Shown: piece by piece, positions 404 to 21,671 of the stretch
Position numbering within the stretch: position 1 is the first letter of the stretch
Layout: each line of letters opens with the position of its first letter
DNA from: an uncultured Candidatus Binatia bacterium
Lineage (GTDB): Bacteria; Desulfobacterota; Binatia; UBA9968; CAXXLF01
Assembly: GCA_965218425.1 (NCBI GenBank)
Contig: OZ244621.1
Span: 1,568,001 to 1,632,000 of the forward strand
Direction: 5' to 3'
DNA: 64,000 nucleotides
Position numbers and translations under genes: made by a program
Notes under the pieces: generated by a model
The model's input: the letters and a program-made list of their open reading frames with translations, nothing else
Told to the model about the DNA's origin: nothing
Databases searched by the model: none

Positions 404-458
404 CGGCTTCGCCGCCGGTCGCCACGCTTTGCCAGAGGAACGATAGCGGCGCGCTCAG

Positions 459-671
459 CTATCCTACTCGCGAGCATGGGTAGGCGTTCTTTATGTAAAG
501 ATGCAGGAATCTTCCTTTAGACGCCGCCCTCATCAACTGATCGTATATATTTCCAGGGCAATTATAGTATCGATAGATCGATCCACTTCGAAACTCGACC
601 TCCAAAGTTTGTGTCGGCGCATCGTATCCGATCGACGCAACATTCGATGACGTTACCAAGTATCGTTTCAT
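459..671 (-). CDS. KTSC-domain protein
   Basis: 70 aa from ATG 671 (MKRYLVTSSNVASIGYD...TLEVEFRSGSIYRYYN...LMRAASKGRF), which matches the KTSC pattern. Confidence 0.85.
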   Translation of the reverse strand: MKRYLVTSSNVASIGYDAPTQTLEVEFRSGSIYRYYNCPGNIYDQLMRAASKGRFLHLYIKNAYPCSRVG

Positions 672-749
672 TCGAGTCACTCGTTCGTCCTTTGGCTCAT
701 CAGTCACCGCTTCGCGACTGATATTGACCTCTTTAGCCACGGCACGAAA

Positions 750-894
750 CCGGGGTCAGGCAACATGAAAAAGGGGGCAAGCTCCAGCAGGACGGCGGTT
801 GTAACGGCCATTAAACCTGAAAGGAGCAGATCCCATGCCTTACGTCGGGATAGACTATCACAAACGATACGCCCGGCTAAATGCCATCGACGAG
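750..894 (+). mobile_element. IS110/IS1111-family left-end remnant, copy 1 (leader hairpin plus first 20 transposase codons)
   Basis: ATG 835 gives MPYVGIDYHKRYARLNAIDE, which has the GID.HK start of IS110 DEDD recombinases. The upstream arm GGGG..GCTCC pairs with GGAGC..CCC over the RBS. 132/145 identical to 11741-11885. Confidence 0.75.
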
Positions 895-1071
895 AAAGAA
901 CCGCATCCATGCTTTAGAACACCGCGTCCAAATGGACAGGACATTCCAAGGGAGAATTGGCGCAATACAAGCCGGAATCCGAAAGGGAAGGAAACCCAAA
1001 ATAGCAAGAAGGCAAGCCTGATACCGGTTACTTGACAAAAACCATTGAGGTAGCCATCCGTGTTTTTTGCA

Positions 1072-4000
1072 TCACGTCTTCGATCGTGGAAAGAGGGGCA
1101 TCCACTGGGCACCTCCCTTGCCGGACCCGTGCAAGATGGGCAACGAGTTGTTTGGACAATTGCGTGAAAACGTGAGTAAAAGTCCTTGGTCCTTGAACCC
1201 TAAGGGGGTGCGCTTTTGCACTCGGACTCCGAGGTCTCTAAGCAGAGTCTTAGCAGCGCTCATCTCCTCTTTCGACTCCCAGAAGCCAATGGAGCTAGTG
1301 AACGCAAAATGCTTGCTCTCCAGTGTTTCGCAAATCTCCAGGTCGGCATTTGGCATGGATTTGTTCAAATGCGCTCTGACTCGATACTCGCCCTCCACGG
1401 TGCTACAAAGTACGATCACTGACAAAGGTACTTCCGTTCCAACCTTTACCTGTTGGAACAAGTCCGAAAGTTCCGTTAGCTTCTCCACAAGGTTGTGTCC
1501 CGTACCAATCATATCATCTACGATGACCAAGCCGATATGTTTCCCGTCGTACTTGTTACCGACGACGTCATCAAGTTGAAGAGGTGTGACCACGTTCTCT
1601 GAACGAATCTCATTCGTGCGCGCATAGAGTTCTGCATAGAGTGCGCCACTCTTTCCAGGTCCATCGACGTAGGAGACCAAGATATCGTCCCGATGTTGTG
1701 AACGACTCTTTTGCACAGGCACCGGCAGTTTGCCACGGATCCATCTATGCGCCTCCGAAAGTTTCTTTCTGGTCTCGAGGTCACTAACAAAACGAACATT
1801 TTGCAGCAACTTGAGCAACCACCTCCGTTCAATGTTTGACTCTACTTGTTCAATCCATGCTCTTATCTTGTCTTCTGTGATCTGGCGTCCCTGGTAAAGG
1901 TCCCATTTATTTGCAACATCGACGATTTCCGTTGCTCGGACGTACGCTATGTCTTCACGATGTTGTTTAGCCTCAGCTAGTTCGTCACCCAACTGGTCAC
2001 TAACAAGCATTGAAAACCCACTTTCCCTTAGCCAAACGGCGAACAAATCAACGGCAGGCAGATACGCGCCGTTCTTCTCTCTAAACACTCTACGTCGGCA
2101 TAAGTCTTCCAAGAGGGGCAAGACTTCAGTAGTATTGAATACGCCAGAAAGTACATTTGCGCCAATGGACTCGTGAGTCAACGGCTTCTTTGATCGTGCG
2201 GTGCGTGCCCAGGCCATAAACAAGCGACACCGCTTAATCGAAACAATCTCAATGTCATTAGAGTCACCGCGTATGCCGTCTCTCCAGTAGTGCGCGAATG
2301 CATTTGTGTCGAGAGTTGCAACGACTTGTTCCGCGGCCTTCTCGACTTCAGCACTTGATATTTCAGCGTCCTTGGTCTCAACTGCGCACTCATAGACTTT
2401 TGCACATAGCATCTTGGTAAAATACGGGTGCCCGTCCGTAAGTTCGAACAATTTGCGGAGGGCAGGTTCGTGCAATTTAATCACATTCTCCACAGGAGTC
2501 TGGATCAAGGCGCGATAATCTCCCCACTCAGTCTGTAGACTGAAGCTGTCAAGTGATTCGCGATTAAATTTATTTAGTTTCTCTCCTTGAGATGCCATCA
2601 CATAAGGCATCCGTTCAGCGCCTACCAGCACGAATGCGATGTTACTCTTGGACGAAAGCGTTCGCAGATTTAGGAAGAACGTGTTCGCTAACTCTCCGTA
2701 CCTGTACAGAGACTCGTTGATTTCGTCGAACTCATCTAAAATCACAACAAAACGCGATTCCGGCTTTTGAGTTCTTAGTTGGTCTAGAAGACTGTTTAGA
2801 GGTATTAGAGACGATGAAAAGTCCTCCGATAGCCAACCAGCGGACTGTGGCAAATTTTCCGCGAGAAATCTCTCCAATTGTGTTCCGAGCTCCTTCAACG
2901 TGTCCTCGCCCGACGAATGCCGGATTTCACCACACTCAAGATATAGAACGTTATAGTCACCTGGATGTATGTTATTTTTGATTTTAGTCTCGACGGCACG
3001 AGCAAGAGAGCTCTTTCCTACGCGCTTTTGACCGGTGATGTAACAGGACTGCATCGAGTCGGAAGCCAAGCGGCGTAGAATTCTTTGCACAGCGTCTTTA
3101 CGCCCGTAAAACTCCTGGTCATGAGCGACTTCGAGGCTATAAGGCTGTTGGCGCGAGAGGTCATCCCAATTGAGGTCGTTACGCTGGCCCTTAGCCGTCA
3201 CAGAGAATGTTCGGGTATGATTCGAGGGGTCACCGATCACGCCCCACTGGATTTCTACTTCTAGCTCCAGGCTTTCACGTGGCTCGGTCACGTTGACGAT
3301 CAGTGTCAGCACAAACGAGCCGGGTTCTACATCGCCTAAGCTCGTCTCCTCGCTTTGTATCTCGCAGTGGTCTGCAACACAGGTAGCCCGAACATTTTGT
3401 GCCACGCCTGGGCCTTCGTTGGTAAGTGGTATAAAAATCTGAATCTCAGAGTCGGTTACGTGAAGTGGATATTTCTTTTCGATTTCAAACGGACTGACAG
3501 GCACAGAAATTATGCAAGCAAACTTATCAGCCATGGTTTCTTGCTGCGCCCGTGCAGCAGTCTGGGCTTGTAGAAGGAAAGGAAGCATGTACTCTTGCAC
3601 AATGAAGGTCGGAGTATTCGCGTATTGATTTAGTTCGTCAGCGATGCTCTCTAGCAGACACTGCATGCTTGCCTGTAGCTTGTGTCCCTGAGACTGCGCA
3701 AGACCATCAACAAGTTTGAGTAGGCTACTAACAGATGACCGCACAGGGTCGAATCCAAAAGCGTTCAGATAGCTCTTCGTCGGTCCGTGATTAAGTTCCG
3801 TCAGAATTGTCTGACGGCGACCCCATAAATCCTGTACGCTAGTGAACGGTTGCTGTAGATAACTCAAATGTTTACAAGCTGTATGGTGTATCGTTTTAGC
3901 CCATTGGATCTTTTTGTGATTTGGAGCATTCTTGTCCGGGAAAACCTTCGAGATCAGGTCAGGGCAACCTTCTTCGATTAGCCGCACAATGTGGCGTCGA

Positions 4001-4281
4001 CCTTTATTGATGTCGTCCGTAGTCAGAACGTCCGTACAACTGACCAGTCGAATGGAGATTAAACCCATGTCTCTCTTCATGTTATCGTTGCAACCTTTCG
4101 CGATTGCTTCGAATGTGTCGGCCAGAGAAAGGGAAGAGTCTGGCGCGATCTGAGCTAGATTCTGGAGCGAATCGCTAATGATGCGACGTGCGTTGGAAAG
4201 GTTGGAAGGATCGGTATTCAATTCGTAGAGTACAGATTCGATTCGAAGAATATCGTCATGCAAGTCATTCATTTTGTACAC
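1072..4281 (-). CDS. STAND-like AAA+ ATPase with an Ig-like region and a C-terminal PRTase-fold (PRTase-CE-like) effector; candidate defence protein
   Basis: Motifs: PY...FYGR, Walker A GQKRVGKSS, Walker B VVILDEFD and GxP (ELTDGHPYF). The C-terminus has GKSG, IVDDMIGTG (PRPP-binding loop) and PLGF...NCPNNSLPIL...WMPLFPR. GC is lower than in the adjacent hsd genes. Confidence 0.75.
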   Translation of the reverse strand: MYKMNDLHDDILRIESVLYELNTDPSNLSNARRIISDSLQNLAQIAPDSSLSLADTFEAIAKGCNDNMKRDMGLISIRLVSCTDVLTTDDINKGRRHIVRLIEEGCPDLISKVFPDKNAPNHKKIQWAKTIHHTACKHLSYLQQPFTSVQDLWGRRQTILTELNHGPTKSYLNAFGFDPVRSSVSSLLKLVDGLAQSQGHKLQASMQCLLESIADELNQYANTPTFIVQEYMLPFLLQAQTAARAQQETMADKFACIISVPVSPFEIEKKYPLHVTDSEIQIFIPLTNEGPGVAQNVRATCVADHCEIQSEETSLGDVEPGSFVLTLIVNVTEPRESLELEVEIQWGVIGDPSNHTRTFSVTAKGQRNDLNWDDLSRQQPYSLEVAHDQEFYGRKDAVQRILRRLASDSMQSCYITGQKRVGKSSLARAVETKIKNNIHPGDYNVLYLECGEIRHSSGEDTLKELGTQLERFLAENLPQSAGWLSEDFSSSLIPLNSLLDQLRTQKPESRFVVILDEFDEINESLYRYGELANTFFLNLRTLSSKSNIAFVLVGAERMPYVMASQGEKLNKFNRESLDSFSLQTEWGDYRALIQTPVENVIKLHEPALRKLFELTDGHPYFTKMLCAKVYECAVETKDAEISSAEVEKAAEQVVATLDTNAFAHYWRDGIRGDSNDIEIVSIKRCRLFMAWARTARSKKPLTHESIGANVLSGVFNTTEVLPLLEDLCRRRVFREKNGAYLPAVDLFAVWLRESGFSMLVSDQLGDELAEAKQHREDIAYVRATEIVDVANKWDLYQGRQITEDKIRAWIEQVESNIERRWLLKLLQNVRFVSDLETRKKLSEAHRWIRGKLPVPVQKSRSQHRDDILVSYVDGPGKSGALYAELYARTNEIRSENVVTPLQLDDVVGNKYDGKHIGLVIVDDMIGTGHNLVEKLTELSDLFQQVKVGTEVPLSVIVLCSTVEGEYRVRAHLNKSMPNADLEICETLESKHFAFTSSIGFWESKEEMSAAKTLLRDLGVRVQKRTPLGFKDQGLLLTFSRNCPNNSLPILHGSGKGGAQWMPLFPRSKT

Positions 4282-4421
4282 ATCCTCATTCCTAATCTTC
4301 CCTCTTAGCCTTCTTGACTAACAAACGATTTGACGGGTTCAATTGGCCTATGAGCGGCTTGCACATTGGCTGCTTCCGATCCGTATCGTCCATCGGACTC
4401 TGGCGTTTTCAAGGTAAAACA

Positions 4422-6065
4422 TCAAGAGCCAGTATTACCAGACATTATGGGTCCAGCCCCGAGCGCAGCAGCGAGAGGTTCAATGCGTTTTCTGAGTTTC
4501 TTGGCCAGAGCCTCGTCACCCTGAACTCGGGAGATCAACGTTTGCTCATACGTCTTTCTACCTTTAAGTTCGAGGGCTTCAGTAATAGCTTTAAAAACGC
4601 TGCTCTCGCGGAGCGGATAGCGAGCAACGAGTTCGTCCAGTTTCTTCTCAGCAACAAGTTTCTTGAAGCGCACCAACTCATCTTGATAGGGAGAATCGGC
4701 AGACAGGTCGAATTTTGGCTTGGTTTTGATACATTTCCAATCGGGGACTTGCCGTAGTATCATATCACGTACTCGACCTTCGCAACGCCGCGCCGCCATC
4801 TTTTCGGCAAGGCTGTCCTGATTCAGGGCATCAAGTGCTTTCCGTGTCGCAGACTTTATCATATCGTTTGCGTCGCAACCCAGTGACTCTGCTTGTCGGT
4901 GGGCGACCGCGGCAATGGCATCTGAGCAATAGTAGAGTGCTTCGACCGAGTACACGTCCAAGGCAAACACGCCCTCCTTTGCAAGCTCCTGTATTTTGTC
5001 TTCCGCTTGATTGTCCCCATCGATAAGCCCAAACGCCTCGACGTGATGGAGATATCGGGATCCTCGCAGGCCGCTCACCGCTCTATGGACATCGATGCAA
5101 CTTCCCTTCGGCACCACCGAGATATCCGGAAATAGCGTGTGATAAAGTGGAAGGTCCAAACTTTGGGGCTCGCCTTCAACAAAGAGAATTCTTTTCCGGG
5201 AACCCAAGATAGCCCGTTTAAGATCCTCCGGCAGGTGTGCGTTCGCTTCAAGGAGTTTGACATCCCAAGCTTTTGCTGCGTCGCCGCTCCATTCGCATGA
5301 GCGAACCATCAGGACGCGTGCTTCCGGGTTGGCGACCGGCAGGTCGACCTCATGCGTTGAGACGACAAATGCGCAATCCGTGCGACGATCAAACAGTGCC
5401 GACAGAAATGGCTCGATGATGGACCGATGAAGATGCCGTTCCGGCTCATCAATCAACAACACGGTTCCCGGATCGACGGTTAGCATGGTGGCCGCTATTA
5501 TTGCGGCGTTCCGCTCCCCATCCGACATCTGAGCGATACTGTACGGCGCACTGCCGTCTCGATGCTGCGCGAGTATCTCTTCGTCATTGGAATTTTTGAG
5601 AGTGACCGCCAGCGTTCCGAGCGCGAGCAATTCGTTGAGTTGATCAAACGGAGAGGGCGATTTATCAAATTCCGCCTGTGCCTGTGATGGGTTTCGAGCA
5701 GCATGATGCTTGATGATGGACCGAGCCCGGGTGTTCTCCTTGGCAACCAAGTCAAATAGAACGGCCGATTGTCTTTCTTGTGCGTTATCATCTCGCCAAC
5801 GAGATTGGTTTTGTATTTCGCGCGGCGTGTTACTCTGATCAAACCATTTGCGCTGCTGCGGCGTGAGGTTGATGCTCCCGGACTGAAACCATGTCTGTCG
5901 ATGCGCCGAAATGCGCCTGATTTTCTTACCTGGATTCGATGAAACAAGGTGTTGAATCAATGCCGATTTTCCAGAGCCATTGGCGCCAACAATGAAGAGC
6001 CGGTCGTTGTCATCGAGAGATATTTGGAGCGGTTGGCCTGAAATTTGAGGAATATTCCAATTCAT
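4422..6065 (-). CDS. ABC-type ATPase fused to a TOPRIM/DUF4435-like nuclease (PARIS AriA-AriB fusion-like or OLD-like)
   Basis: Walker A GANGSGKS, signature MSDGER, Walker B LLIDEPERHLH and STH. The TOPRIM part has ILFVEG...D, GLIDGD and YSVEAL. Confidence 0.75.
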   Translation of the reverse strand: MNWNIPQISGQPLQISLDDNDRLFIVGANGSGKSALIQHLVSSNPGKKIRRISAHRQTWFQSGSINLTPQQRKWFDQSNTPREIQNQSRWRDDNAQERQSAVLFDLVAKENTRARSIIKHHAARNPSQAQAEFDKSPSPFDQLNELLALGTLAVTLKNSNDEEILAQHRDGSAPYSIAQMSDGERNAAIIAATMLTVDPGTVLLIDEPERHLHRSIIEPFLSALFDRRTDCAFVVSTHEVDLPVANPEARVLMVRSCEWSGDAAKAWDVKLLEANAHLPEDLKRAILGSRKRILFVEGEPQSLDLPLYHTLFPDISVVPKGSCIDVHRAVSGLRGSRYLHHVEAFGLIDGDNQAEDKIQELAKEGVFALDVYSVEALYYCSDAIAAVAHRQAESLGCDANDMIKSATRKALDALNQDSLAEKMAARRCEGRVRDMILRQVPDWKCIKTKPKFDLSADSPYQDELVRFKKLVAEKKLDELVARYPLRESSVFKAITEALELKGRKTYEQTLISRVQGDEALAKKLRKRIEPLAAALGAGPIMSGNTGS

Positions 6066-6084
6066 CAGATATTCTCCTAGTGGA

Positions 6085-8604
6085 TTAACCGCCCCACACT
6101 CGCCCGATGGCCGCGCTGATCTTCTTCTCGAAACGTTCGATCAACTCGCGGTTGGCGGCGACGAGGGCTTGCTCGGCTTCGATTTCGGCGACGATTGCTT
6201 GCTGCGTGTCAGGAGGCGGCAGAGGTATTTCTGTATGGAATAGTTGGGATCTGTTGATCTTTGGAATGCTCGCACGCTCGTAGTGGTGGCAAATACGCTG
6301 GTTAAATGATTCTGACAACATGTATACGGACAAATAGTGAATTTTAATCTTCGAACTGTTCGTTATCAGCGGATAGATGTCGGAACTGCAATAGCCATGA
6401 ATGTCAACAATTCCGAGTTTGTTCAGGTAAGGTCGGATTTTACTGTACAAAAGGCGCTCGCCGGAGAACTCGTAGACTGGTCCGCTGACTCCTTGATTCT
6501 GAGCTGTCTCCACTTTTAAAAATTTACCGGTATGTGATTCAATGCTGTCAGAGCCGAAGTAAGGTAGTGTAGGATTCACTGTCTTCGTAATTGATCCACC
6601 CATTGTGCAGATCTTTCCCAACTCCACCATCGGCCACTCGGGGTCAATTGCGATATGCGGCCGGTAGTTGTCTACCACCGCCCGCGCCCCGTCTATCACA
6701 CGCTGGTAGCCCTCTATCTCCGCCACGATCTCCCGCTGCACCTCCGGCGGGGGCAGGGGGATTTCCAGATTTGCGAACGACTGCCAGCCTATACGAGGAA
6801 GCTGTGCACCTTTGAGTTGGCTCAAGACTTCATCATTAAAGTGACCACTTCGAAAGACATAGGCGTACAAGGCTGGTAAGACGCGTCCATCCAAGGATCG
6901 GACAACGAATATATCAGTCGAGCAGATGCCCTTCCGATCCGAGAGCCACACCTTGTTGAGGTTCGGCCGTAACTTTCCATAGAGAATATCGCCGGGACAG
7001 AAGACATTCTTAAGACTCTTGATCCCTGCTGGATTATCGGTCGCGACATTCCCCGATAGTTGCCCGCTGGTCTGAGTGATGTTTTCCAGCCCTATGCAAT
7101 TCACGGGACCACGGAGCGACATCGGCAAGACAGTTTCCTCCGCCTTCTTGAATACATCTCTCACTCTCACGGAAGGCCACTCGGATAGGATGGAGTGTTC
7201 AGTCCGATACCTTTCCCCGCTCAGGTTGTAGTCCCCGCCCGCCGCTATCTTCTCCTTCTCGGCGATCAGACCGAATGCGGGTCGATAGTCGTCCGTTGTG
7301 TACCGCGCCCCAGGTTCCGCTACACGATCCGTCGGCGTCGGCTGAATTGCGTCCACGGATTCGCCCGCCCGCAACCGGCGCAGATATTCGCCAAGCTCGG
7401 CCCGCACGTGAGGCAGGTCGTTCCTGTCGATGGGCCGGCGCTGGGCGCCGAGGTCGTAGCCGTCGTTTGCCACCTTGAAGAAACCTATGCGGCCGGTCTT
7501 CTTCGCCAGCGACTTGTCGAGGATCAGGATCGAGGTCTTGACGCCGGAGTAGGGATTGAACACCCCGGCGGGCAGCGAGACGACGGCGACGAGGCACTCC
7601 TCCACCAGCATCCTGCGCAGTCCCTTGTGGGCGGTCTGGCTCTGGAAGACGATGCCTTCGGGCACGATGATGCCGGCGCGGCCGGAAGGCGTCAGGTGCT
7701 CGGCCATGTAGTCCACGAACAGCACCTCGCTCCGCTTGGACTGGACGGAGAAGCGGTTGTGCGGCCTGATGCCGCCCTTGGGCGACATGAACGGAGGGTT
7801 GGCGAGGATCACGTCGGCGTACTCGTTCCAGCGGTCCTGGCTGGTGAGGGTGTCGTATTCGGATATGTGCGGATCGGCGAAGCCGTGCAGGTACAGGTTC
7901 ACCAGCGACAGGCGCACCATGTCGGGCGAGATGTCGTAGCCGTTGAAGTCGGCGGCAAGCTTCCCTTTTTCGTCGGGTGTCAGCGTGCTGTGCCTCTCGT
8001 CGTCGGTGTTGGCTTCGAGGATGTGCTTGTAGGACGAGATCAGGAATCCGGCGGTGCCGCAGGCGGGGTCGAGTACGGCCTCGTCCTTCTTCGGGTCGAC
8101 GACGGCGACGATGAAGTCGATGATATGGCGCGGGGTGCGGAACTGTCCGGCGTCGCCCTGCGAGCCGAGGACGGACAGCAGGTACTCGAAGGCGTCGCCG
8201 AGCCGTTCGGAGTGGTCGTAGGCGAACTCGTCGATGACCTTGAGAAAGGCGCGCAGGGTCTCGGGGTCGCGGTAGGGCAGGAAGGCGTTCTTGAAGATCT
8301 CGCGGAACAGCGGCGGGATGCCGGGGTTCTCCGGCATCCTGGCGATAGCCTCGGCGTAGAGGTCGAGAACCTCGTGTCCCCCCAGCCCCGAGCGCATCAG
8401 CTTGGCCCAGCCGTAGCGGGCGAACCCGCCGGCGAAAAATCTCCGCGCGCCCCCGAGTTCCTCGCTCCCGGCGTCCATGTCGTCCATGAACTTGTAGATC
8501 AGCGCGATGGTGATCTGCTCGACCTGGCTCTTGGGGTCGGGCACCTTGCCCACGAGAACGTCGCGGGCGGTGTCGATGCGGCGCTTGGTGTCGGTGTCCA
8601 GCAT
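6085..8604 (-). CDS. hsdM-hsdS: Type I R-M N6-adenine methyltransferase fused to the specificity subunit (HsdM-HsdS)
   Basis: GQFRTP, DPACGTAGFL and NPPF motifs, then two TRDs, each ending in an EIPLPPP..Q..IVAEIE conserved helix. Confidence 0.9.
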   Translation of the reverse strand: MLDTDTKRRIDTARDVLVGKVPDPKSQVEQITIALIYKFMDDMDAGSEELGGARRFFAGGFARYGWAKLMRSGLGGHEVLDLYAEAIARMPENPGIPPLFREIFKNAFLPYRDPETLRAFLKVIDEFAYDHSERLGDAFEYLLSVLGSQGDAGQFRTPRHIIDFIVAVVDPKKDEAVLDPACGTAGFLISSYKHILEANTDDERHSTLTPDEKGKLAADFNGYDISPDMVRLSLVNLYLHGFADPHISEYDTLTSQDRWNEYADVILANPPFMSPKGGIRPHNRFSVQSKRSEVLFVDYMAEHLTPSGRAGIIVPEGIVFQSQTAHKGLRRMLVEECLVAVVSLPAGVFNPYSGVKTSILILDKSLAKKTGRIGFFKVANDGYDLGAQRRPIDRNDLPHVRAELGEYLRRLRAGESVDAIQPTPTDRVAEPGARYTTDDYRPAFGLIAEKEKIAAGGDYNLSGERYRTEHSILSEWPSVRVRDVFKKAEETVLPMSLRGPVNCIGLENITQTSGQLSGNVATDNPAGIKSLKNVFCPGDILYGKLRPNLNKVWLSDRKGICSTDIFVVRSLDGRVLPALYAYVFRSGHFNDEVLSQLKGAQLPRIGWQSFANLEIPLPPPEVQREIVAEIEGYQRVIDGARAVVDNYRPHIAIDPEWPMVELGKICTMGGSITKTVNPTLPYFGSDSIESHTGKFLKVETAQNQGVSGPVYEFSGERLLYSKIRPYLNKLGIVDIHGYCSSDIYPLITNSSKIKIHYLSVYMLSESFNQRICHHYERASIPKINRSQLFHTEIPLPPPDTQQAIVAEIEAEQALVAANRELIERFEKKISAAIGRVWGG

Positions 8605-8613
8605 GGAGAGACT

Positions 8614-11148
8614 CTATGGGGCGAACTGGTTCAGGGAGACGTAATCCTTGACGTATTCCGGAATGAGACTGCGGTATTTCTCCGGCACGGCGCGGAAGTC
8701 GCGGGTGGAGAAAACCGGGTTGGTTGCCAGGTCGGTGAAGCGCTTGCCGTCGATGATCTCGCGGATCCGGTTGCTGGCGGCATAAGCCTTGAAGTAGCTC
8801 TTGATGGCCGGGATGGACCTGAACTCTTCGGGCTTGTAGTCGGCGACGAACTTGGCGAACTCCTCTTCCAGCAGCTCGTCCTTGGACTTGAAGCGGGGGA
8901 TAAGGCCGAAGACCTTCTCCAGGATCTCGCGCAAGGTCAGGCGGCGGTCCACGGCCGCGGCCCGGCGCAGCTTGGCGAGGGTGTAGTACTCCTCGGGCTT
9001 GTCGAAGACCTCGCGGTTGACGTAGTCGATGACCCGGTCCCACTGGCCGGCTTCGATGGCCGTCGCGATGATTTCGTCCTTACGCACGGCGTCTTCGAAC
9101 TTCTCGAAGAACATGCGGTCGATCTTCATCCCTTCGAATCCGATTTCTTCCTCCTTGATGAGCGACAGGATGTCGGGTCCCAAGTGCTCGTATGCGCCGC
9201 CGACGACCACGGGGCCATCGCCCCCGTCGCCGTTGCCGTCCCCGGGCGGCGGCAGCGTCAGCACCTCGTCGTAGTTGAACTCGGTCTCGAAGTACTCGCA
9301 GTTGCCGAAGAAATCGAAGAGCTTGAAGGCCGTCTTGTCCGGCCTGGCGACGGCGGCCTTGAGGCTGTCGTCGAAAAGCTGTTCGAGGAAGTCGTGCCTG
9401 CGGGTGCCGCGTCCCTTGATCTGGATGAAGTCGGTGGGTGAGAAGATGGGCCGGAACATGCCGAGATTGAGGATATCGGTGCAGTCGTAGCCGGTGGTCA
9501 TCATGCCGACCGTCACGCAGATACGGGCCTTGCCGGTCCTGTAGCCGGGCAGGAAGTTGCCCGAGCCGAGCAGGTTGTTGTTGGCGAAGTTGATGGTGAG
9601 CCGTTGGGCGTCCGGTATCTCGGAGGTGACCTGCACGGCGAAGTCCGACTGGTACTTGCCGGGGAACATGCGGTCGGCCATCCGGTTGAGGATCTGCGCC
9701 AGCTTGGCCGCGTGGTTCTGGCTGACGGCGAAGACGATGGATTTGCCGATCTCGCCGCTGACGGGGTCGCGCAGCGCATTCTCGAGAAAGGTCTTGCAGA
9801 AGAGCCGGTTGGTGGCTTCGGAAAAGAAGCGCTTCTCGAACTCGCGCTGCCCGTACGCCTCCTGCTCATCCTCGCCGCCGTTATCGGTGAACGGGACGAT
9901 AAAGCCTTCTTGGGAGAGGAGTCGGGTGGTTACTTCCGTACGCGCGTCCACCACGGTCGGGTTGACCAGAAAACCGTCTTTCACGCCGTCGAGCAGTGAG
10001 TAGCGAAAGGTCGGCTCACCGCTCTCGCAGCCGAAGGTGCGGTAGGTGTCCATCAGCAGCCGGCGCTCGGCTTCGCGCGGGTCCGTCGCCGCGGGGACGG
10101 CATGGTCGAAGCCCTTCAGGTAGTCGCGGGGCGTCGCGGTGAGGCCGAGCTTGTAGCCGACGAAGTAATCGAACACCGCCCGGGCGTTGCCGCCGATGGA
10201 GCGGTGCGCTTCATCCGAGATGACGAGGTCGAAGTCGGTGGGCGAGAAGAGCTTTTGGTACTTGTTGTTGAACAGCAGGGACTGCACGGTGGCGACGACG
10301 ATCTCCGCGCGACGCCAGTCGTCCCGCTTCTCCTTGTAGATGACCGTCTGGAAGTCGGCGGAAAGCAGCGCGGTGAAGACCTTGCGGGCCTGGTCCTCCA
10401 GCTCCAGGCGGTCCACCAGGAAAAGCGCGCGGCGGGCGTTGCGGGAGCGCAGGAACAGCTTGACGACGGCGGCGGCCGTGAGCGTCTTGCCCGTGCCGGT
10501 GGCCATCTCGAACAGGAACCGGTCCCCGCCGTCCTTTACGCTGCGTTGAAGGGCATGGACGGCTTTAAGCTGATAAGGGCGCAGAAAGCGCAGCTTGTCG
10601 GCCTGGATAAAGCCGGGGCGCTCGGCTTCGTTCTTCCAGGCCGCCTCGGAGGCGTAGTTCGGACGCTGGGTCAGGACGATATAGTCACCGGCGACCGGCT
10701 CATCGATCAAGCGCTTCGGGTCGGGCGTGACCTTTCGGTAGCCGTCCGCCGAGTCGGGCGCAGGGAACGAGGTGATGACGTAGGGGTTGCCGCGTTCGAG
10801 ATCCCAAAAGTAGTGCAGGTTGCCGTTCGAGAGGATCACGAAGCGGCAGTTCTGCGACCGGGCGTACTTGCGGGCCTGCTCTTTACCCGCCAGCGGACTC
10901 TTGTCCTCGGCCTTGGCCTCAAGAACGATGAGCGGGAATCCCTTGCCGTCGAGCAGCAGGAAGTCGATGAAACCCTTGGAGGTCTTCTCGAAATCGTGAC
11001 CCAGCGCGTCGAGGTCGGATTGCTCGATCGTGACGCTTAGTTCGAGGCAGACGTTGGCGGGGCCGTCTCCCTCCGGGAAGAAACGCCAGCCGGCTGCTTC
11101 CAGCAGCTTGTTGATCTTGATACGCGCTGCGGCTTCGCTCATGGGCAC
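8614..11148 (-). CDS. hsdR: Type I restriction endonuclease subunit R (EcoAI/EcoEI-like)
   Basis: Nuclease motif FIDFLL...LEAK. Helicase motifs LRPYQ, MATGTGKT, DEAH, LTAT, TTGYD and QIKGRGTR. 9 bp from hsdMS. Confidence 0.9.
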   Translation of the reverse strand: MPMSEAAARIKINKLLEAAGWRFFPEGDGPANVCLELSVTIEQSDLDALGHDFEKTSKGFIDFLLLDGKGFPLIVLEAKAEDKSPLAGKEQARKYARSQNCRFVILSNGNLHYFWDLERGNPYVITSFPAPDSADGYRKVTPDPKRLIDEPVAGDYIVLTQRPNYASEAAWKNEAERPGFIQADKLRFLRPYQLKAVHALQRSVKDGGDRFLFEMATGTGKTLTAAAVVKLFLRSRNARRALFLVDRLELEDQARKVFTALLSADFQTVIYKEKRDDWRRAEIVVATVQSLLFNNKYQKLFSPTDFDLVISDEAHRSIGGNARAVFDYFVGYKLGLTATPRDYLKGFDHAVPAATDPREAERRLLMDTYRTFGCESGEPTFRYSLLDGVKDGFLVNPTVVDARTEVTTRLLSQEGFIVPFTDNGGEDEQEAYGQREFEKRFFSEATNRLFCKTFLENALRDPVSGEIGKSIVFAVSQNHAAKLAQILNRMADRMFPGKYQSDFAVQVTSEIPDAQRLTINFANNNLLGSGNFLPGYRTGKARICVTVGMMTTGYDCTDILNLGMFRPIFSPTDFIQIKGRGTRRHDFLEQLFDDSLKAAVARPDKTAFKLFDFFGNCEYFETEFNYDEVLTLPPPGDGNGDGGDGPVVVGGAYEHLGPDILSLIKEEEIGFEGMKIDRMFFEKFEDAVRKDEIIATAIEAGQWDRVIDYVNREVFDKPEEYYTLAKLRRAAAVDRRLTLREILEKVFGLIPRFKSKDELLEEEFAKFVADYKPEEFRSIPAIKSYFKAYAASNRIREIIDGKRFTDLATNPVFSTRDFRAVPEKYRSLIPEYVKDYVSLNQFAP

Positions 11149-11243
11149 GAAGCCTCTTTGCCGACGCCTCGGGTCGAGGCCGGCGCTTCTCGCAATACCC
11201 TTTTCCCCATGAACAAATCCCTCTGCTTACCGGAGCTTATCGC

Positions 11244-11561
11244 CTATCGAACGGTGTGGATCTTCAGGTGAAGCCCCTCGCGTTTCTGGAGGTAGCCGAT
11301 GATCTTAAACAGGTTGCGGGCCTGAGGATTGCCGTTGGGGCCGAACATGCGCATCAGGCTCTTGGGCGACTTCGCGATCAACCCGCCAAGCTCCTGGAAG
11401 CCGATGGTGGCGTTGATGTAGTCGTGCAGTACCGCCTTGCCGGTGTCCAGGTCGCCGGAGAGCAGGCACTCGACTCCTTCTTTGAGCAACTCCTCGCGGA
11501 AGGCAGGGTCGCGCTCAATACGCGCCAGAATCGTTTCCTTGAAGTTTCGTGTCAAAGACAT
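11244..11561 (-). CDS. Addiction-module antitoxin / HTH transcriptional regulator
   Basis: MSLTRNFKETILARIERDPAFREELLKEGVECLLSGDLDTGKAVLHDYINATIGF...KSLMRMFGPNGNPQARNLF is a widespread antidote family. The likely start is 11561, not 11654. Confidence 0.8.
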   Translation of the reverse strand: MSLTRNFKETILARIERDPAFREELLKEGVECLLSGDLDTGKAVLHDYINATIGFQELGGLIAKSPKSLMRMFGPNGNPQARNLFKIIGYLQKREGLHLKIHTVR

Positions 11562-11566
11562 GGTTC

Positions 11567-11654
11567 TCAAGTCTCCCGCCGCTTGCGCCGCCTGTATTCC
11601 CGCCAGAGGTCGTGGGCGGCCTTGGGTGTCAAAGTACTCCCTGATTTCAATCAT
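11567..11654 (-). pseudogene. Internally deleted RelE/HigB-type toxin
   Basis: The N-terminus MIEIREYFDTQGR is joined, in another frame, to the C-terminus KAAHDLWREYRRRKRRET*. Most of the toxin is missing. Confidence 0.75.
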
Positions 11655-11740
11655 TGCCGTCAGGTAACCGATACGTTACCATCCAGCGAGCCTCGGCTGC
11701 AAGTGTCTGTATTGGGCCTCCACATTTTGCACTTTCGTAT

Positions 11741-11885
11741 CCGGGGTCAGGCAACATGAAAAAGGGGTCAAGCTCCAGCAAGATGGCGGTTGTACCGGCC
11801 GTCAAACCTGAAAGGAGAAGACCCCATGCTTTACGTCGGGTTAGACTGTCACAAACGATGCGCCCGGGTAAATGCCATCGACGAG
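11741..11885 (+). mobile_element. IS110/IS1111-family left-end remnant, copy 2
   Basis: ATG 11826 gives MLYVGLDCHKRCARVNAIDE. Same leader hairpin and same truncation point as copy 1. Confidence 0.75.
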
Positions 11886-12403
11886 GCGCCCGTCGGCGCA
11901 GCGGTTCGGAAATAATTGAGAACGGCCGGGAAAATCGGAGAAATTCCCGGGCAAGATAACCCAAAAATCGCCCATGCAAAGCCCCTAAAAGGGGCGTGCA
12001 TCGACCGCGCTCGATGCCGCCGGAAACAGAAAAACGTCATGCATGCAGGAAGTCGATACGGACTGAAACGGTCACGGTGGCGTGGTCGTCGGCGGGCACC
12101 GATTCGGGATTGCTTGACAGCGATAGTGCAGAACATCGAGCTGTTGATTGATCATGCACGGCCAAAACCCGGAGCGGTTATGACTCGGTTGGATCTATTG
12201 CGCTATTTAACCGACGCTTGGGCAACAGCCCGACAAGACGTGACCCCGATGCGTAGAGCTTGCAGCCGAATCGGGTCGGCAGACCTTTAAGATAAGAATC
12301 GTAAGGTGATGTTCCCGGTCATCGTCATCGCGGAAGATGAGCCGGCGGCGGATACGAAGTTCCATTGTAGTTCCGAATGGGAGGGGGACGGTCGGATGAT
12401 TCG

Positions 12404-13189
12404 TCAGAGATGGCGGTTCAGGAAATCTATGGTCCGCTGGTGGGCGAGACGTGCCGCCGGCGCATCGAACGCCGCCCCGTCCTCGACGTCAAAACGGTCG
12501 CCGGCGCCTTTGTAGATGTGGACTTCCGTATTCTTATTCCGCGCCATAACTCGTTCGGCGAGCTCCTTCACGGCGTCCAGATCGCTGTCGGCCGCTTTTT
12601 CCGGATAGTGCGCGATAAGCGGCGCTTCCATTTTGTCCAGCCGGTAGGCGGCCGGGGCCGTGATGGCCCCGCTATCGCTATAGTAGACAACGGATGCGCC
12701 GATGTCGAACCCGGCCACCGCCATGTGAAATGACCAGGCGGCCCCGTATCCCCAGCCTGCTACCGCGACGCGCCCGCCATCGACCTGAGGCAGGGAGCGG
12801 AGGTAGGAGAGTCCGCTTCTCATGTTTCTAAACACCACACGGTGATTGCTTTTCTTTATCTGCTCGCCAATGACGGGTCGGACCTCTTCTGCCGAGGCAT
12901 AGGTCTTGCCGTCGAAAGCGTCCAGCGCCAAAGTGACGAACCCGGCGGCGGCAAAGGCCCTCGCCCTTTTCCGCATCTCGTTATTCAGCCCCCCGAAATC
13001 ATGCATGAGGATCAACGTCGGCGCTTTCCCGGCGTTGTCGGGCGTAGCGAGAAACCCCCTTACGTCCCCGTAATAGGCAACCGTTTTTTCCTGAACCGCA
13101 TGGGCACCGAACGGCGCAAGGAGCGTAGCCGCAACGGCCAGCGCCGCCTTGCAGATCAGCCTTCGTGCTCGATGTTTCATCGAATGCAT
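12404..13189 (-). CDS. Exported dienelactone hydrolase family protein, probably catalytically inactive
   Basis: Signal peptide ending AHA and DLH-fold motifs. The nucleophile motif reads GWGYG (canonical GWC.G) and the His motif reads GAGDRF (canonical GA.H.F). Confidence 0.75.
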   Translation of the reverse strand: MHSMKHRARRLICKAALAVAATLLAPFGAHAVQEKTVAYYGDVRGFLATPDNAGKAPTLILMHDFGGLNNEMRKRARAFAAAGFVTLALDAFDGKTYASAEEVRPVIGEQIKKSNHRVVFRNMRSGLSYLRSLPQVDGGRVAVAGWGYGAAWSFHMAVAGFDIGASVVYYSDSGAITAPAAYRLDKMEAPLIAHYPEKAADSDLDAVKELAERVMARNKNTEVHIYKGAGDRFDVEDGAAFDAPAARLAHQRTIDFLNRHL

Positions 13190-13349
13190 GCTCGTTCCCT
13201 CCAGTCGTCACATGTTCGCAGCACCCCGCCGTGCGTCTGGCCCGAACACCTCGGTTTCCCACCCATGCTACGATAATAGACTCTATCCGGTTCCATGCCG
13301 CCCGGTTCAGCAACCGGACCCGCGTCATCGGCGCCTCCCCAGGCGGTCC

Positions 13350-13558
13350 CGCCGCTACACCGAAGCGAGAGAGGTGGCGAACTATCTAACGGGGTGGTAC
13401 AGTTCAATGGGGCGAGTGGAGACGGGCGGGCCGGCCGGGCTGGATCATGGAACGGTAAGCAATGCGGTCGGCCGAGCCGCCGAGAGCAAGGACCGGGGCC
13501 TGGGCGCGGCTTTGAACGAAGCCGTGGCAGAAACCGAGAATCCATAGACACGGGCCCC
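13350..13558 (+). pseudogene. Possible C-terminal remnant of a REP-associated tyrosine transposase (DnaA-C-like HTH)
   Basis: AREVANYL...GLDHGTVSNAVGR...L* followed by AGACACGGGCCCC, similar to GAC.TGACCCC element ends. Confidence 0.4.
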
Positions 13559-13576
13559 GGGGCGGGAGACAACGAA

Positions 13577-14443
13577 ATGAGATCGTCATCGTGGAAACTA
13601 AGCGCCATCGGAGCCGCACTGGGAATATGCGCCGTGATCGGCGCGGCGGGACAGAGCGCGGCCGGAGAGGCGAAGCGTTCGGGGTGGTACATAGGCGCGG
13701 GCGTCGGGATGAACTGGACATCCGAGATGGAGCAGGCGGGCCGCAACCGGGACACCATCTGTTACCCGAACAACGATTGCACCGGCGCCGCGCCCGGGGG
13801 CTATCGATGGCACTACGACCTCTCTGCGGACGGCGGCGCCGCGTTCGAAATCTCAGCCGGCCGCATGTTCGACAGAGCGCGCCTGGAATTGTCTTTGACC
13901 GAGCGAAGAAACGACGTTGAACAAAAATTCACCGGCATCACCTACCTTGACGGATCCGCCATCGTACCCGACCCGGCGAGCAACTATACGGAGTCCGCCG
14001 CGACCGAGATCGATCGTCTGACGGTGCGCACCGTTTCGCTCAACGTCTACTACGACTTCCCCCTTGCGAAGAGCCGGCTCACGCCTTACCTGGGCGCCGG
14101 AGTGGGTGTCTCTTTCGTCAAATTGTCGGGGCTGTATTACCACAGCCGATACTCGTGCAAGGATCCCTCATCGAATTGCGAGAGACCCGAGCAGTACAAC
14201 GGCCGGCAGGATGTCGACCTGTCCGATACCGTCCTCTCCAAGAGCCTCTACGCCGGCGTCGACTACCGCCTGAATGACAGTTTTCTGCTGGGCCTGAAGC
14301 TATCTTACGGCCTGGTGGACGACATGGAGGACAAAAGCGGTTACTCCGAGCATGCGGTTCCCGGCCTCACCAGCCTCACCAAAATAAGCGACATGGACCA
14401 CCTGTCTCTGATGCTCGCCCTGAAGTACCGGTTCGGCGACTGA
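13577..14443 (+). CDS. Outer-membrane beta-barrel protein (Opa/P44-Msp2/OmpA-like)
   Basis: Signal peptide, SGWYIGAGVG, SLNVYYDF, PYLGAGVG, AGVDYRL and terminal LKYRF. Start at ATG 13577 after GGGAG. Confidence 0.8.
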   Translation: MRSSSWKLSAIGAALGICAVIGAAGQSAAGEAKRSGWYIGAGVGMNWTSEMEQAGRNRDTICYPNNDCTGAAPGGYRWHYDLSADGGAAFEISAGRMFDRARLELSLTERRNDVEQKFTGITYLDGSAIVPDPASNYTESAATEIDRLTVRTVSLNVYYDFPLAKSRLTPYLGAGVGVSFVKLSGLYYHSRYSCKDPSSNCERPEQYNGRQDVDLSDTVLSKSLYAGVDYRLNDSFLLGLKLSYGLVDDMEDKSGYSEHAVPGLTSLTKISDMDHLSLMLALKYRFGD

Positions 14444-14479
14444 CGCCGCTCAACGTTCCCCTCGCCTGCGGCCGAGCCG

Positions 14480-16876
14480 CTAGACAACGGGGGCGCCTTC
14501 CGTTGGCTTTGCCGTCTTCGGCCTCACCAGCCACGCGCCGAGCGCCGGCAGGAGCACGATGGCCGCGACCATGTTGACGAGAAACATGAACATCAGCACC
14601 GTGCCCATATCGGCCTGGAACTTGAGCGGCGCGAAGATCCACGTCGCGACCCCCGCCGCCAGAGTGAGGCCGGTGAGCACCACGCCGGCGCCGGTGGTGG
14701 AGAGCGTCCGCTCGTACGCCGCGGCGAAGTCGAGCCCCTGCGCGAGATGGACGCGAAGCCGCCCGTAGATGTAGATCCCATAGTCCACCCCGATGCCCAC
14801 CCCGAGGGCGACCACCGGCAGGGTGGAGATCTTGAGTCCGATCTCCAGCAGAGCCATGAGCGCGTAGGCGAGCAGGGAGACCATGGCGAGCGGCGCGGTG
14901 ATGCAGACCGTTGCCGCCACCGAGCGGAAGGATAGCAGGCACAGGACGATGACCGCGGCGAACACGTAGCCGAGGATCGGGAACTGCGACGCCTCGACCT
15001 CCTCGTTGGTCGCCGCCATCACCCCGACGTTGCCGGCGGCGAGCCGGAAGGCGATGCGGTCGTCGGCGCCGGGGTACGCGGCGCGGAAGCCCTTCACGGC
15101 GTTGACGATGCGCTCGATGGTCTCGGCCTTGTGGTCGGCTGTGAAGATCAACACCGGCATCACGCTGCAATCGGTGTTGAGCAGGCCGGTGCTCGTGGCC
15201 ACGGGGGACACTGCCTGCACGAGCGTATACCGATTGCGCGGCAGGGTCCGCCACTTGAGACTTCCCTCGTTCCAGTTCGCGTTGACGTTACGGGCGACGC
15301 CGGCGAGCCCGATCACCGACTGGACGCCGTCCACGTTGCGCATGTGCCATTCGAAGTCGTCGAGAGTGCTCATCACCTTGTAGTCGACGCAGCCCTCCTT
15401 CACGGCTTCCGCGATCACCGTCAGCACGTCCACGCCGACCTCGAAGCGCTCGGTGATGACGGCGCTGTCGCGGTTGTATTTGGAATCGGCGCGCAACTCC
15501 GGCACGCCGCGGCGCTCGTCGCCCACCCGGACCTCCGTCGCATGGCGCGCCCCCACCGCGAGCAGCAACACTGCCGCGCCGATCACCACCGCGGCAGGAC
15601 CCCGCAGCGCCACCCGCGCGACCCGCGACCACACCGGGCGCAGGAAGTCGTCGCGCGCGCGCGCGGCGCTGCGCTCGTCGTCGTCCACCTCGAAGTACGA
15701 GAGCCACACCGGCAGCAGCGCCAGATTGGTGAGGATGATCGCGGCGACCCCGAGGCTCGCGGTGACGGCGATCTCCTGGATGACCTGCACCTCGATGAGC
15801 GAGATGGTGATGAAGCCGACGGAGTCGGAAGCGAGCGCCACCGAACCCGGCAGCAGCAGGCGGCGGAAGCTCGCCCGCGCGGCATCGAGGCCGCCGGCAC
15901 CGGCGACCGCCTCCGCGCGAACCGCGCTCACCATCTGAACCCCGTGGCTGACTCCGATGGCGAACACCAGGAACGGCACCAGGATGGACATCGGATCAAC
16001 GCCGAAGCCCAGCGCCGTGAGCCCGCCGAGCTGCCACACCACCGCCACCAGGGAGCAGGCCAACGGAGGCACGGTCATACGGATCGACCGGGTGTAGACA
16101 TACACGAACAGGGCGGTGATGAGGAAGGTGAGCCCGAAGAACGCCATCACCCGGGTCGCACCCGCCGCGATGTCCCCCACCAGCTTGGCGAACCCGATGA
16201 CGTGCATGTCTATGTGCACGTCCACGTCGGCGCGGGCCTGCGCCTCGCTGCGTATGCGTTCCAGCTCGCTCGCCACCTCGATGTAGTCGAGCCGCTCGCC
16301 GGTGTTGGGATGAAACTCCTGGAGCTTGCCGCTCACAATGGCGCCGGTGAAATCGTTAGCCACCAGACGGCCGACGATGCCCGCCTTGATGATGTTCTCA
16401 CGCACCCGCGCGAAGCCGGCCTCGGTAGGCTGGAAGTCCGCCGGCAACACGTCGCCGGCAGTGATGCCGTCCTCCACCACCTCGATGAAGCGCACGTTCG
16501 GGGTGAGGACGGAGTAAACCTGAGTCCGGTCGATGCCGGGCAGGAAGAACATCGCATCGGTCACCTGGCGCAACGCGGCGAAGAATTCGGGGGTGAACAT
16601 GTCGCCCTTGCGCGCCACCAGCGCGACCAACACGCGGTCCGCGCCGCCGAACTCGTCCCGGTACTTGAGGAAGGTCCGCATGTACTCGTGCTCGAGGGGA
16701 ACCAGCTTGGTGAAGCCGGCGTCGATCCGGAGCCCCGTCGCGCTCCACGCCATCGCCAGGGTGATGAGCGCGAACGCCGCGAGCACGAGGCCGCGGCGGG
16801 CGAACAGCAGCTTCTCCGAGAGGGCCGTGAACGAAGCCCGCGAGGGAGGGGGAGAAGGGGGTATGGCGGCAGGCAC
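14480..16876 (-). CDS. RND/MMPL-family transporter
   Basis: Two sets of TM helices, FAIGVSHGVQ and LGVGIGVDYGIY; last gene of the DUF1302 cluster. Confidence 0.85.
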   Translation of the reverse strand: MPAAIPPSPPPSRASFTALSEKLLFARRGLVLAAFALITLAMAWSATGLRIDAGFTKLVPLEHEYMRTFLKYRDEFGGADRVLVALVARKGDMFTPEFFAALRQVTDAMFFLPGIDRTQVYSVLTPNVRFIEVVEDGITAGDVLPADFQPTEAGFARVRENIIKAGIVGRLVANDFTGAIVSGKLQEFHPNTGERLDYIEVASELERIRSEAQARADVDVHIDMHVIGFAKLVGDIAAGATRVMAFFGLTFLITALFVYVYTRSIRMTVPPLACSLVAVVWQLGGLTALGFGVDPMSILVPFLVFAIGVSHGVQMVSAVRAEAVAGAGGLDAARASFRRLLLPGSVALASDSVGFITISLIEVQVIQEIAVTASLGVAAIILTNLALLPVWLSYFEVDDDERSAARARDDFLRPVWSRVARVALRGPAAVVIGAAVLLLAVGARHATEVRVGDERRGVPELRADSKYNRDSAVITERFEVGVDVLTVIAEAVKEGCVDYKVMSTLDDFEWHMRNVDGVQSVIGLAGVARNVNANWNEGSLKWRTLPRNRYTLVQAVSPVATSTGLLNTDCSVMPVLIFTADHKAETIERIVNAVKGFRAAYPGADDRIAFRLAAGNVGVMAATNEEVEASQFPILGYVFAAVIVLCLLSFRSVAATVCITAPLAMVSLLAYALMALLEIGLKISTLPVVALGVGIGVDYGIYIYGRLRVHLAQGLDFAAAYERTLSTTGAGVVLTGLTLAAGVATWIFAPLKFQADMGTVLMFMFLVNMVAAIVLLPALGAWLVRPKTAKPTEGAPVV

Positions 16877-16883
16877 GGGCGGC

Positions 16884-19222: not shown

Positions 19223-19227
19223 GGCTC

Positions 19228-21261: not shown

Positions 21262-21671
21262 GCGCCGACATTAACGCCCGACAGCTGAGGTTGTCAAGAT
21301 GTTTCTGGCCTTATGCGGATGTCTGTCAGCGTAAAGCGGCAATATCCCCTTTTGAGAATAAGGGGAGGGGAAATGATAGAGAGAGACCGCTGCATAACTG
21401 CCGTGAACATGTTAAGACAAGTCATGCAAAAGTCATTCACGACGCAACCCGAGATGTTTGTATCGAGCAGGGAAGTGGATCGGAGGTCTCATATTGTAGT
21501 TGTAGCCGGTCAAACTGCAGTTTTTGGGCGAAGGGGGCCTGCACCGAAGTGAGCGATGAGTTGCGAGGGCTGCGGACTGAGCAGGTTAGAGAAGAAATTG
21601 AGAACAGAAGATTGCGGGGAGCAGAGCGCAAAGCAACCGTGGAGTGCAGGTTTAACATCCATCTCTCACCG

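What the first reader, a model, noticed from the sequence alone, without database searches (positions are those of the whole stretch)
750..11885. Defence island bracketed by two IS110/IS1111 left-end stubs cut at the same nucleotide
Seen: 750-894 and 11741-11885 are ungapped direct repeats with 13 mismatches in 145 bp. Each has a GGGGTCAGG motif, a structured leader (outer stem over the RBS and an inner GA(C/T)GGC...GCC(A/G)T stem) and exactly 20 transposase codons ending ...AATGCCATCGACGAG. Each lies just upstream of, and divergent from, a minus-strand cargo block: KTSC for copy 1 and TA-hsdR-hsdMS-ATPase/TOPRIM-STAND/PRTase for copy 2. Known: IS110-family recombinases use non-coding-end RNAs to direct recombination. 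Inference: two diverged copies with one shared breakpoint are hard to explain by independent decay. The stub may be a dispersed non-autonomous unit or a recombination site that delimits and mobilises an ~11 kb defence cassette, or it may serve as an outward promoter for cargo. This is the best candidate for an undescribed system in the window.
Basis: partly seen in the sequence, partly recalled or inferred. Interest (0 to 1): 0.8.

Follow-up and report, generated by a model that had tools for sequence, protein, structure and literature searches.

The report
Hybrid mini-transposon, not a defence bracket
The two look-alike stretches are copies of a small hybrid jumping element, formed when an RNA-guided insertion sequence landed in the end of a different, poorly understood transposon; dozens of copies litter this genome's variable regions, and they do not frame the defence genes as a unit.

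Summary
The 145-bp repeat is real, but it is not a pair of IS110 ends around a defence cassette. It belongs to a genome-wide family: 39 left and 46 right ends, 21 of them complete 200-277-bp elements.

Copy 1 (752-1025) is a chimera: outer half of a TIRtron inverted repeat, IS1111-like left end, transposase remnants, then the 3' end and right repeat of a TIRYT (Y1) gene. In full-length relatives the guide RNA lies in the right end, which this genome lacks. Its guide matches GGGTCAGG, so that motif is the IS target.

The cut points differ (nt 149 and 145; family 26-270). Copy 2 travels with the DNA on its right, 98% identical in two relatives that lack the defence block. Neighbouring genes show no orientation bias.

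Most likely this is a non-autonomous TIRtron derivative spread by TIRYT and mixed by recombination. No two-sided empty site was found. The scan already noted TIRtron debris in this genome. New here are the RNA-guided targeting of TIRtron ends and a junction 5 nt outside the repeat.

The parts
747..751 (+). 5-nt extension outside the left inverted repeat of copy 1 (family consensus RRYYN read outward)
   Evidence: sequence; junction mapping in other copies; that it applies to this copy is inferred
752..760 (+). Outer part of a TIRtron left inverted repeat (GGGGTCAG plus core G); the left half of the IS target
   Evidence: matches left TIR of the intact TIRYT gene at G000 ~2584296; matches the left-target guide of full-length IS relatives
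761..834 (+). Left end of an IS1111-like element: -10 half of the junction promoter, imperfect subterminal repeat from 766, leader and RBS
   Evidence: 83-87% identical to left ends of L081, L055, L064
835..897 (+). Transposase codons 1-21 (IS110 DEDD N-terminus)
896..913 (+). Internal transposase remnant, codons 140-145 (KNRIHA), joined by deletion
   Evidence: P0001-P0004 residues 140-145; nucleotide match to L084 is strong only in a longer family copy (E 5e-6) and weak here (E 0.41)
914..1025 (+). 3' end of a TIRYT (Y1 HUH transposase) gene with its stop codon and the right inverted repeat (~1003-1025)
   Evidence: 81% nt to G000:2583258-2583370; 24 of 38 aligned residues identical to the C-terminus of the intact 325-aa TIRYT
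1026..1030 (+). 5-nt extension outside the right inverted repeat of copy 1
   Evidence: sequence; inferred for this copy
11708..11737 (+). 30-bp stub of the end of a multi-copy IS481-like element, cut where copy 2's extension begins
   Evidence: transposase best hit NF033577 IS481, E 1e-22, below cut-off
11738..11885 (+). Copy 2: 5-nt extension, outer TIR (11743-11751), IS left end (11752-11825), 20 transposase codons; no right end downstream in the window
11886..12050 (+). Module C, a second repeat of unknown origin, joined to the left part at nt 145 in 4 of 39 left ends
12251..12346 (-). Fragment of the 5' part of the TIRYT gene, after an IS1182-like end remnant (~12054-12250)
   Evidence: 84% to G000:2584084-2584174; IS1182 label, below cut-off
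11741..23308 (+). Block that travels with copy 2 (dienelactone hydrolase, beta-barrel, MMPL, YCF48, DUF1329, DUF1302, plus 1.7 kb of core-like DNA): 98% to G001; 11741-14573 98% to G002
459..740 (-). KTSC-domain gene, outer neighbour of copy 1
   Evidence: PF13619 E 2e-23
1072..11654 (-). Defence block (STAND/PRTase-CE, AriAB-like ATPase-TOPRIM, fused hsdMS, hsdR, small ORF); neighbour of the elements, not shown to be their cargo
   Evidence: not found in G001-G004

Best explanation
A non-autonomous chimeric mini-element (MITE-like) of the TIRtron/TIRYT class.

Step 1 (shown in relatives, inferred for this ancestor): an IS1111-like element whose right-end guide RNA reads GGGTCAGG inserted into the left inverted repeat of a TIRtron, between GGGGTCAG and the rest of the repeat, pointing inward.

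Step 2 (shown by anatomy): deletions removed most of the IS, including its right end and guide RNA, and most of the TIRYT gene. This left 200-277-bp units bounded by the TIRtron's outer left repeat and full right repeat.

Step 3 (inferred): the TIRYT still intact in this genome joined these ends to new DNA, usually one end at a time, about 5 nt outside the repeat. Ends and half-elements piled up in variable islands.

Step 4 (pattern shown, cause inferred): copies exchange sequence by gene conversion or recombination, which can also swap the DNA on either side. The defence block is a neighbour in a 46-kb island, not a cassette framed by IS110 sites.
For: Chimeric anatomy. Guide-target agreement in parents: left 7.67 of 8 versus 5.31 permuted, 9 pairs; right 4.75 of 6 versus 3.21, 8 pairs; 0 of 10000 permutations each. 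Donor guides in 9 of 9 parents checked, and a -35 box 17-18 nt from the left end in 7 of 9. L080 has the inferred ancestral layout: a match to window 752-783, full transposase, then a TIRYT start. 21 complete minis among 39 left ends. Intact 325-aa TIRYT with a matching repeat pair. Junction 5 nt outside the repeat in 4 of 11 flank families, compatible in 2 more, and at copy 2 itself. Mosaic copies: 965 of 1531 site pairs show all four gametes; 14 of 16 orthologue differences go to an allele held by 3 or more other copies.
Against: No two-sided empty site was found in G000 plus 19 loci of G001/G002, nor seen in whole-genome searches with 5 further island regions, so movement of a whole mini-element is not shown. 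Three of 11 flank families match only from +7 or +8, and 2 are uninformative. The left end keeps only 9 of about 26 bp of the repeat, so TIRYT may not recognise it. TIRYT activity has not been demonstrated in the papers read (PMC3733652, PMC6006769). The RRYY pattern is not general: 7 of 42 TIRtron ends.
Confidence: 0.68

Rival explanations
1. Spread by the IS110 recombinase itself: left-end fragments ('partial circles') were re-inserted again and again into TIR targets, so each copy is a separate IS event.
For: Partial IS110 circles that reuse a terminus and recurrent internal endpoints, and that reintegrate, are reported (bioRxiv 10.64898/2026.08.14.744561, passages). Endpoints here do recur: nt 92 in 6, 145 in 4, 149-152 in 14 of 39. 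The outer repeat varies between copies.
Against: Such an insertion should be followed by the right half of the target in direct orientation. The minis instead end in TIRYT coding sequence and an inverted repeat. Junctions with foreign DNA lie outside the TIR, not at the IS core. No parent, right end or guide RNA was found in G000; G001's best match is 27% and G002 has none at E 1e-25.
Confidence: 0.1
2. Passive debris: after an old burst the copies are inert, and islands are reshuffled only by homologous recombination between them and by other IS (IS1182-like, IS481-like). The 91% direct repeats could then delete or circularise the 10,991-bp block without any transposase.
For: Repeats diverge faster than adjacent cargo between orthologous loci (14 of 270 versus 53 of 2529, p 0.005; 16 of 279 versus 19 of 980, p 0.002). 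There is no linkage between or within the halves. 37 of 40 ends of low-copy island duplications are not at a TIR end. The far end of copy 2's block in G001 abuts an IS1182-like end.
Against: Recombination inside a repeat cannot join a TIR end to TIR-free DNA at a fixed distance. 3 of 40 duplication ends lie within 12 bp of an end against about 0.2 expected. This rival is compatible with the best explanation as a later stage.
Confidence: 0.17
3. One reading: two IS110 left ends are recombination sites or outward promoters that delimit, mobilise or express the defence cassette.
For: The copies are direct repeats on either side of a defence block, and that block is missing from four relatives. 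IS110 loci carrying cargo, with a modest defence enrichment, are reported.
Against: Different breakpoints. Copy 1 is a closed element with its own right end. Copy 2 pairs with right-hand DNA and has a different left neighbour in G001 and G002. The island runs about 25 kb left of the window and to window ~21620. No orientation bias and no outward promoter match.
Confidence: 0.05

Closest known systems
TIRtron / TIRYT (Di Nocera 2013, PMC3733652; subclass 2.1 of Quentin 2018, PMC6006769; passages read)
   Same: GGGGWSAS-type inverted repeats; a Y1 HUH protein with a Bac_DnaA_C-like tail; dispersed repeat families derived from the ends.
   Different: The dispersed unit is a two-ended mini-element whose left part is an IS remnant. 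A fixed junction outside the repeat and blocks shared between genomes are not described in the passages read.
IS1111-group elements that target other mobile DNA: IS4321/IS5075 (Tn21 TIRs; title seen in reference lists), ISKpn4/ISPst6 (attC), ISPa11 (REP) (PMC11187229, passages)
   Same: Short left end, guide RNA downstream of the transposase, right-target guide before left-target guide, junction promoter, target inside another element's end.
   Different: The target is a TIRtron repeat. The subterminal repeats are imperfect and the right terminal extension is 6 nt rather than 3. In this genome only a guide-less remnant survives.
IS621/REP and ISPpu9/ssr9 (PMC11208160 passages; PMC12288879 abstract)
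   Same: IS110-family element aimed at repeats tied to Y1 transposases; non-autonomous pieces spread in a genome.
   Different: ssr9 is moved by the IS110 transposase through IS ends. Here the moving ends appear to be those of the target element.
Large and partial IS110 elements (bioRxiv 10.64898/2026.08.14.744561; abstract and passages)
   Same: Recurrent internal endpoints with a conserved left terminus; cargo next to IS110 sequence.
   Different: No recombinase or guide of this family in the genome; junctions are not at IS donor boundaries.

Membership tests
IS110 family (origin of the stub) | DEDD (PF01548) plus PF02371 transposase | tested here: met
   60-codon copy 72-78% identical to P0001-P0004, which carry both domains; P0001 passes NF033542. 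Met for the parent, not for the stub as a gene.
IS1111 group (parent) | Guide RNA downstream of the transposase, right-target guide before left-target guide | tested here: met
   order as in PMC11187229. Computational only.
IS1111 group (parent) | Near-perfect 11-13-bp subterminal repeats, 7 nt in on the left and 3 on the right | tested here: inconclusive
   L081 has an 8-bp perfect core within a longer imperfect repeat, 6 nt in on each side; hence 'IS1111-like'.
Functional IS110 mini-element or recombination site (window copies) | Both IS ends, or a donor joint, with a cognate guide RNA and recombinase available | tested here: not met
   No right end, guide or parent transposase in G000; the two intact IS110 genes are 22% identical to P0001.
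TIRtron/TIRYT (helper gene) | Y1 HUH protein with C-terminal HTH between GGGGWSAS inverted repeats | tested here: met
   PF01797 E 3e-17, Bac_DnaA_C E 1e-5 below cut-off; repeats match at 21 of 26 nt; HVH and YIHLNP in the sequence.
TIRtron-derived MITE (copy 1) | Short, non-coding, multi-copy, bounded by inverted repeats of an autonomous partner | tested here: met
   21 complete copies of 200-277 bp; left repeat truncated to 9 bp.
TIRtron-derived MITE (copy 1) | Moves as a unit (two-sided empty site) | tested here: inconclusive
   None found; relatives are other species and mostly lack the islands.
TIRtron-derived MITE (copy 1) | Cleavage and transfer by TIRYT | not testable with these tools
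   needs biochemistry
Composite transposon around the defence block | Same cargo with both ends at a second site, or precise excision | tested here: not met
   Block absent from G001-G004, and copy 2 has another left neighbour there; the PRTase part was found in 0 of 400 other genomes of the phylum.

The most novel reading that the evidence does not exclude
TIRYT ends are active one-ended joining sites with a 5-nt exchangeable extension. They nucleate and grow accessory islands and pass multi-kilobase blocks between genera, as a transposase-driven cassette platform. An RNA-guided IS lineage has evolved to target those ends. Hints: a TIR end lies within about 40 bp of the same core-gene edge in three genomes whose inserts there are 52 kb, 2.7 kb and about 0.1-0.2 kb, and copy 2 heads a block 98% identical across two genera.
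Probability: 0.2. Interest if true: 0.75.

Novelty: new variant of a known kind. Interest (0 to 1): 0.45.

Why it matters
What TIRYT proteins do is open. [quoted passage not shown] This genome supplies an intact enzyme, 85 natural end substrates and a predicted junction position, which makes the question testable. It also adds TIRtron repeats to the list of mobile-element ends that IS1111-like guides aim at; searches listed no paper on that, though most subscription journals are not covered. It does not reveal a new defence-mobilising system.

Tried and rejected
1. A cut 2 nt outside the repeat (RR^YY). Suggested by flank bias (RR in 32 of 38 left flanks, YY in 32 of 36 right flanks). Dropped when allele pairs put the junction 5 nt out; the bias is also not general.

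2. Inversion of a 36-kb segment at copy 2. Considered. The matching flank is itself repeated and only 86-93% alike, so it is not claimed.

3. Circle or empty-site joint between the copies in sequencing data. Four runs from three studies, contigs only. The one joint linking the copies (11823 to 907) has offset 10917, not 10991, and fits the shorter family variant present in 6 genome copies. Contigs cannot show absence, and 49 further joints were not displayed. No RNA holder was listed.

4. Copy 1 as an insertion inside a KTSC-PRTase operon. No close relative with context was found, so it is untested.

5. The leader as guide RNA. No Rfam hit, weak fold, and the guides lie in the other end.

6. 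The donor-loop pattern failed to parse and was redone.

7. A sequence look-up among earlier findings returned nothing.

Of 112 transposase loci examined (L045-L156), only 12 had a parsable guide. Three loci from unpublished genomes were left out. Supplements of the papers were not opened; they may list further IS1111 targets or TIRYT ends.
Full report
Observation. The two stretches are direct repeats with 13 mismatches in 145 bp, 10,991 bp apart. The genes between them are a STAND/PRTase-CE protein, an AriAB-like ATPase-TOPRIM, a type I restriction-modification pair and a small ORF without a relevant family hit; KTSC lies left of copy 1. BLASTN against the genome gave 46 hits to the repeat, 53 to window 906-1035 and 18 to the DNA after copy 2, mostly in clusters. 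Motif searches gave 39 left ends and 46 right ends, and 21 of the 39 left ends close with a right end within 200-277 bp. Copy 1 is one of these; copy 2 is a left half only.

Breakpoints. Measured against the longest native transposase copy (reference capped at 270 nt; alignments can overshoot by a few bases), the 39 left ends stop at nt 26 to 270. Clusters lie at 92 (6), 145 (4) and 149-152 (14). Copy 1 stops at 149 and copy 2 at 145. The shared end at 894 is where two sub-families part, not a common cut.

The IS part. The longest copy encodes 60 residues 72-78% identical to four full-length IS110 proteins. DNA loci of relatives show the same left end beginning at the base after GGGGTCAGG, with different flanks in different elements. 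Twelve of 112 loci had a parsable structured region after the stop codon. Its second guide matches the left flank (7.67 of 8 versus 5.31 permuted, 9 distinct pairs). Its first guide is complementary to the right flank (4.75 of 6 versus 3.21, 8 pairs). Neither was reached in 10000 permutations. Donor guides were present in 9 of 9 parents checked, and a -35 box sat 17-18 nt from the left end in 7 of 9. Position and order agree with IS1111 elements (PMC11187229 passages; PMC11208160 passages). Four of the 12 guides read TGGGTCAGG. No right end, guide or parent gene was found in this genome; its two intact IS110 genes are distant.

The TIRtron part. Window 914-1025 is 81% identical to the 3' end and right repeat of an intact 325-aa Y1 gene at G000 2583264-2584241. 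That gene's left repeat starts with the same motif. In 27 related loci, 15 had both repeats and 14 of these matched at 21-25 of 26 nt, fitting the GGGGWSAS TIRtrons (PMC3733652 passages; PMC6006769 passages). In copy 1 the frame runs from transposase residues 140-145 straight into the TIRYT tail. L080 shows the inferred ancestral order, with a TIRYT start after the IS (profile E 1e-9); L045 has nine TIRYT-like start codons at its contig end, judged by eye. The left-end motif was found in G000 (37), G001 (7), G002 (3), G196 (5), G205 (1) and the unpublished G206 (1), 6 of 121 genomes of the order.

Does it frame the defence block? In G001-G004 only the repeats and a 117-bp hsdM piece match window 1-11740. 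Window 11741-23308 is 98-99% identical to G001, where core orthologues are 80-89%, and 11741-14573 is 98% identical to G002. In both, the match starts at copy 2's first base and the left neighbour is other DNA. Synteny with G001 puts the island at about G000 1543127-1589620, from 25 kb left of the window to window ~21620. Copy 2's left flank is a 30-bp stub of an IS481-like end. Outer genes point away from 21 of 39 left ends and 23 of 46 right ends, by my own simple gene caller, which missed KTSC. No promoter-like site was found at either copy.

How the ends join. Among 11 flank families with a TIR-free allele, the match starts 6 nt outside the repeat in 4, at +3 or +4 in 2 (compatible through chance identity), and at +7 or +8 in 3; 2 are uninformative, and one member of a +6 family is offset. 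Copy 2 against the IS481-like end also fits +6, with a 1-nt indel nearby. All are one-sided; no two-sided empty site was found. Three of 40 ends of low-copy island duplications lie within 12 bp of an end, about 0.2 expected, and 37 do not. At another island a TIR end lies at the same core-gene edge in G000, G001 and G002, with inserts of very different size.

Mosaicism. Among the 21 minis, distances in the left and right halves are uncorrelated (Mantel r -0.08), as are halves within each part. 965 of 1531 site pairs show four gametes, and r2 is about 0.08 beyond 3 nt. Orthologous copies diverge 2.5-3 times faster than adjacent cargo, and 14 of 16 differences go to common family alleles. Gene conversion is the simplest reading; recurrent mutation at hot spots is not excluded. 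This means that shared DNA starting at a repeat could also come from recombination between copies.

Verdict. A chimeric, non-autonomous TIRtron derivative carrying a dead IS1111-like left end. The anatomy and the guide-target match are shown. TIRYT-driven spread is inferred (0.68). Earlier scan notes called related repeats in this genome TIRtron debris, and one note in another genome describes a TIRtron beside a broken IS110; my tests agree with the first and offer targeting as a reason for the second. The names MITE, composite transposon and the IS481 terminal motif are from my own knowledge. New variant of a known kind, interest 0.45.

Noticed in passing
G000:185333; G001:C7 ~1364800 (L272); G002:C2 ~1522450 (L273): A TIR end sits within about 40 bp of the same core-gene edge in three genomes whose inserts there are about 52 kb, 2.7 kb and 0.1-0.2 kb: a possible island nucleation site.
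   Followed up: partly
L184, L186, L193, L196, L197, L203, L209: Seven intact TIRtrons of the order have a second GGGGTCA-like motif 12-14 nt outside the left repeat, some on both sides, as if they insert into short repeat dimers.
   Followed up: no
L157:13030, L159, L160, L161, L163, L176 (G001): A multi-copy element with one fixed end is inserted just after TTGAC/CTGAC-like motifs, in one case inside a TIRtron right repeat: perhaps a second element that favours these ends.
   Followed up: no
window 11886-12050 and 17 further hits in the genome: Module C, with phased A-tracts and GC-rich blocks, recurs next to the TIR ends in either orientation; its source was not found.
   Followed up: partly
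window 1-418: An HGGxSTG-domain gene region is duplicated at G000 2584341-2585570 (90%), where it lies 45 bp from the intact TIRYT's left repeat.
   Followed up: partly
window 1072-4281: STAND-PRTase-CE fusion of 1069 aa; its PRTase part was found in 0 of 400 other genomes of the phylum and only weakly in 5 plasmids.
   Followed up: partly
window 11244-11654: The ORF looks like an antitoxin-type HTH gene fused to a deleted toxin start (recalled resemblance; no profile hit).
   Followed up: no
G000:1527442-1543007: Core segment 1528761-1543007 is inverted relative to G001, with the window's island at one breakpoint.
   Followed up: no
L238 (G196:C14): A 92-codon IS remnant lies between direct copies of the target motif, the second forming a short palindrome of two TIR halves.
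   Followed up: no
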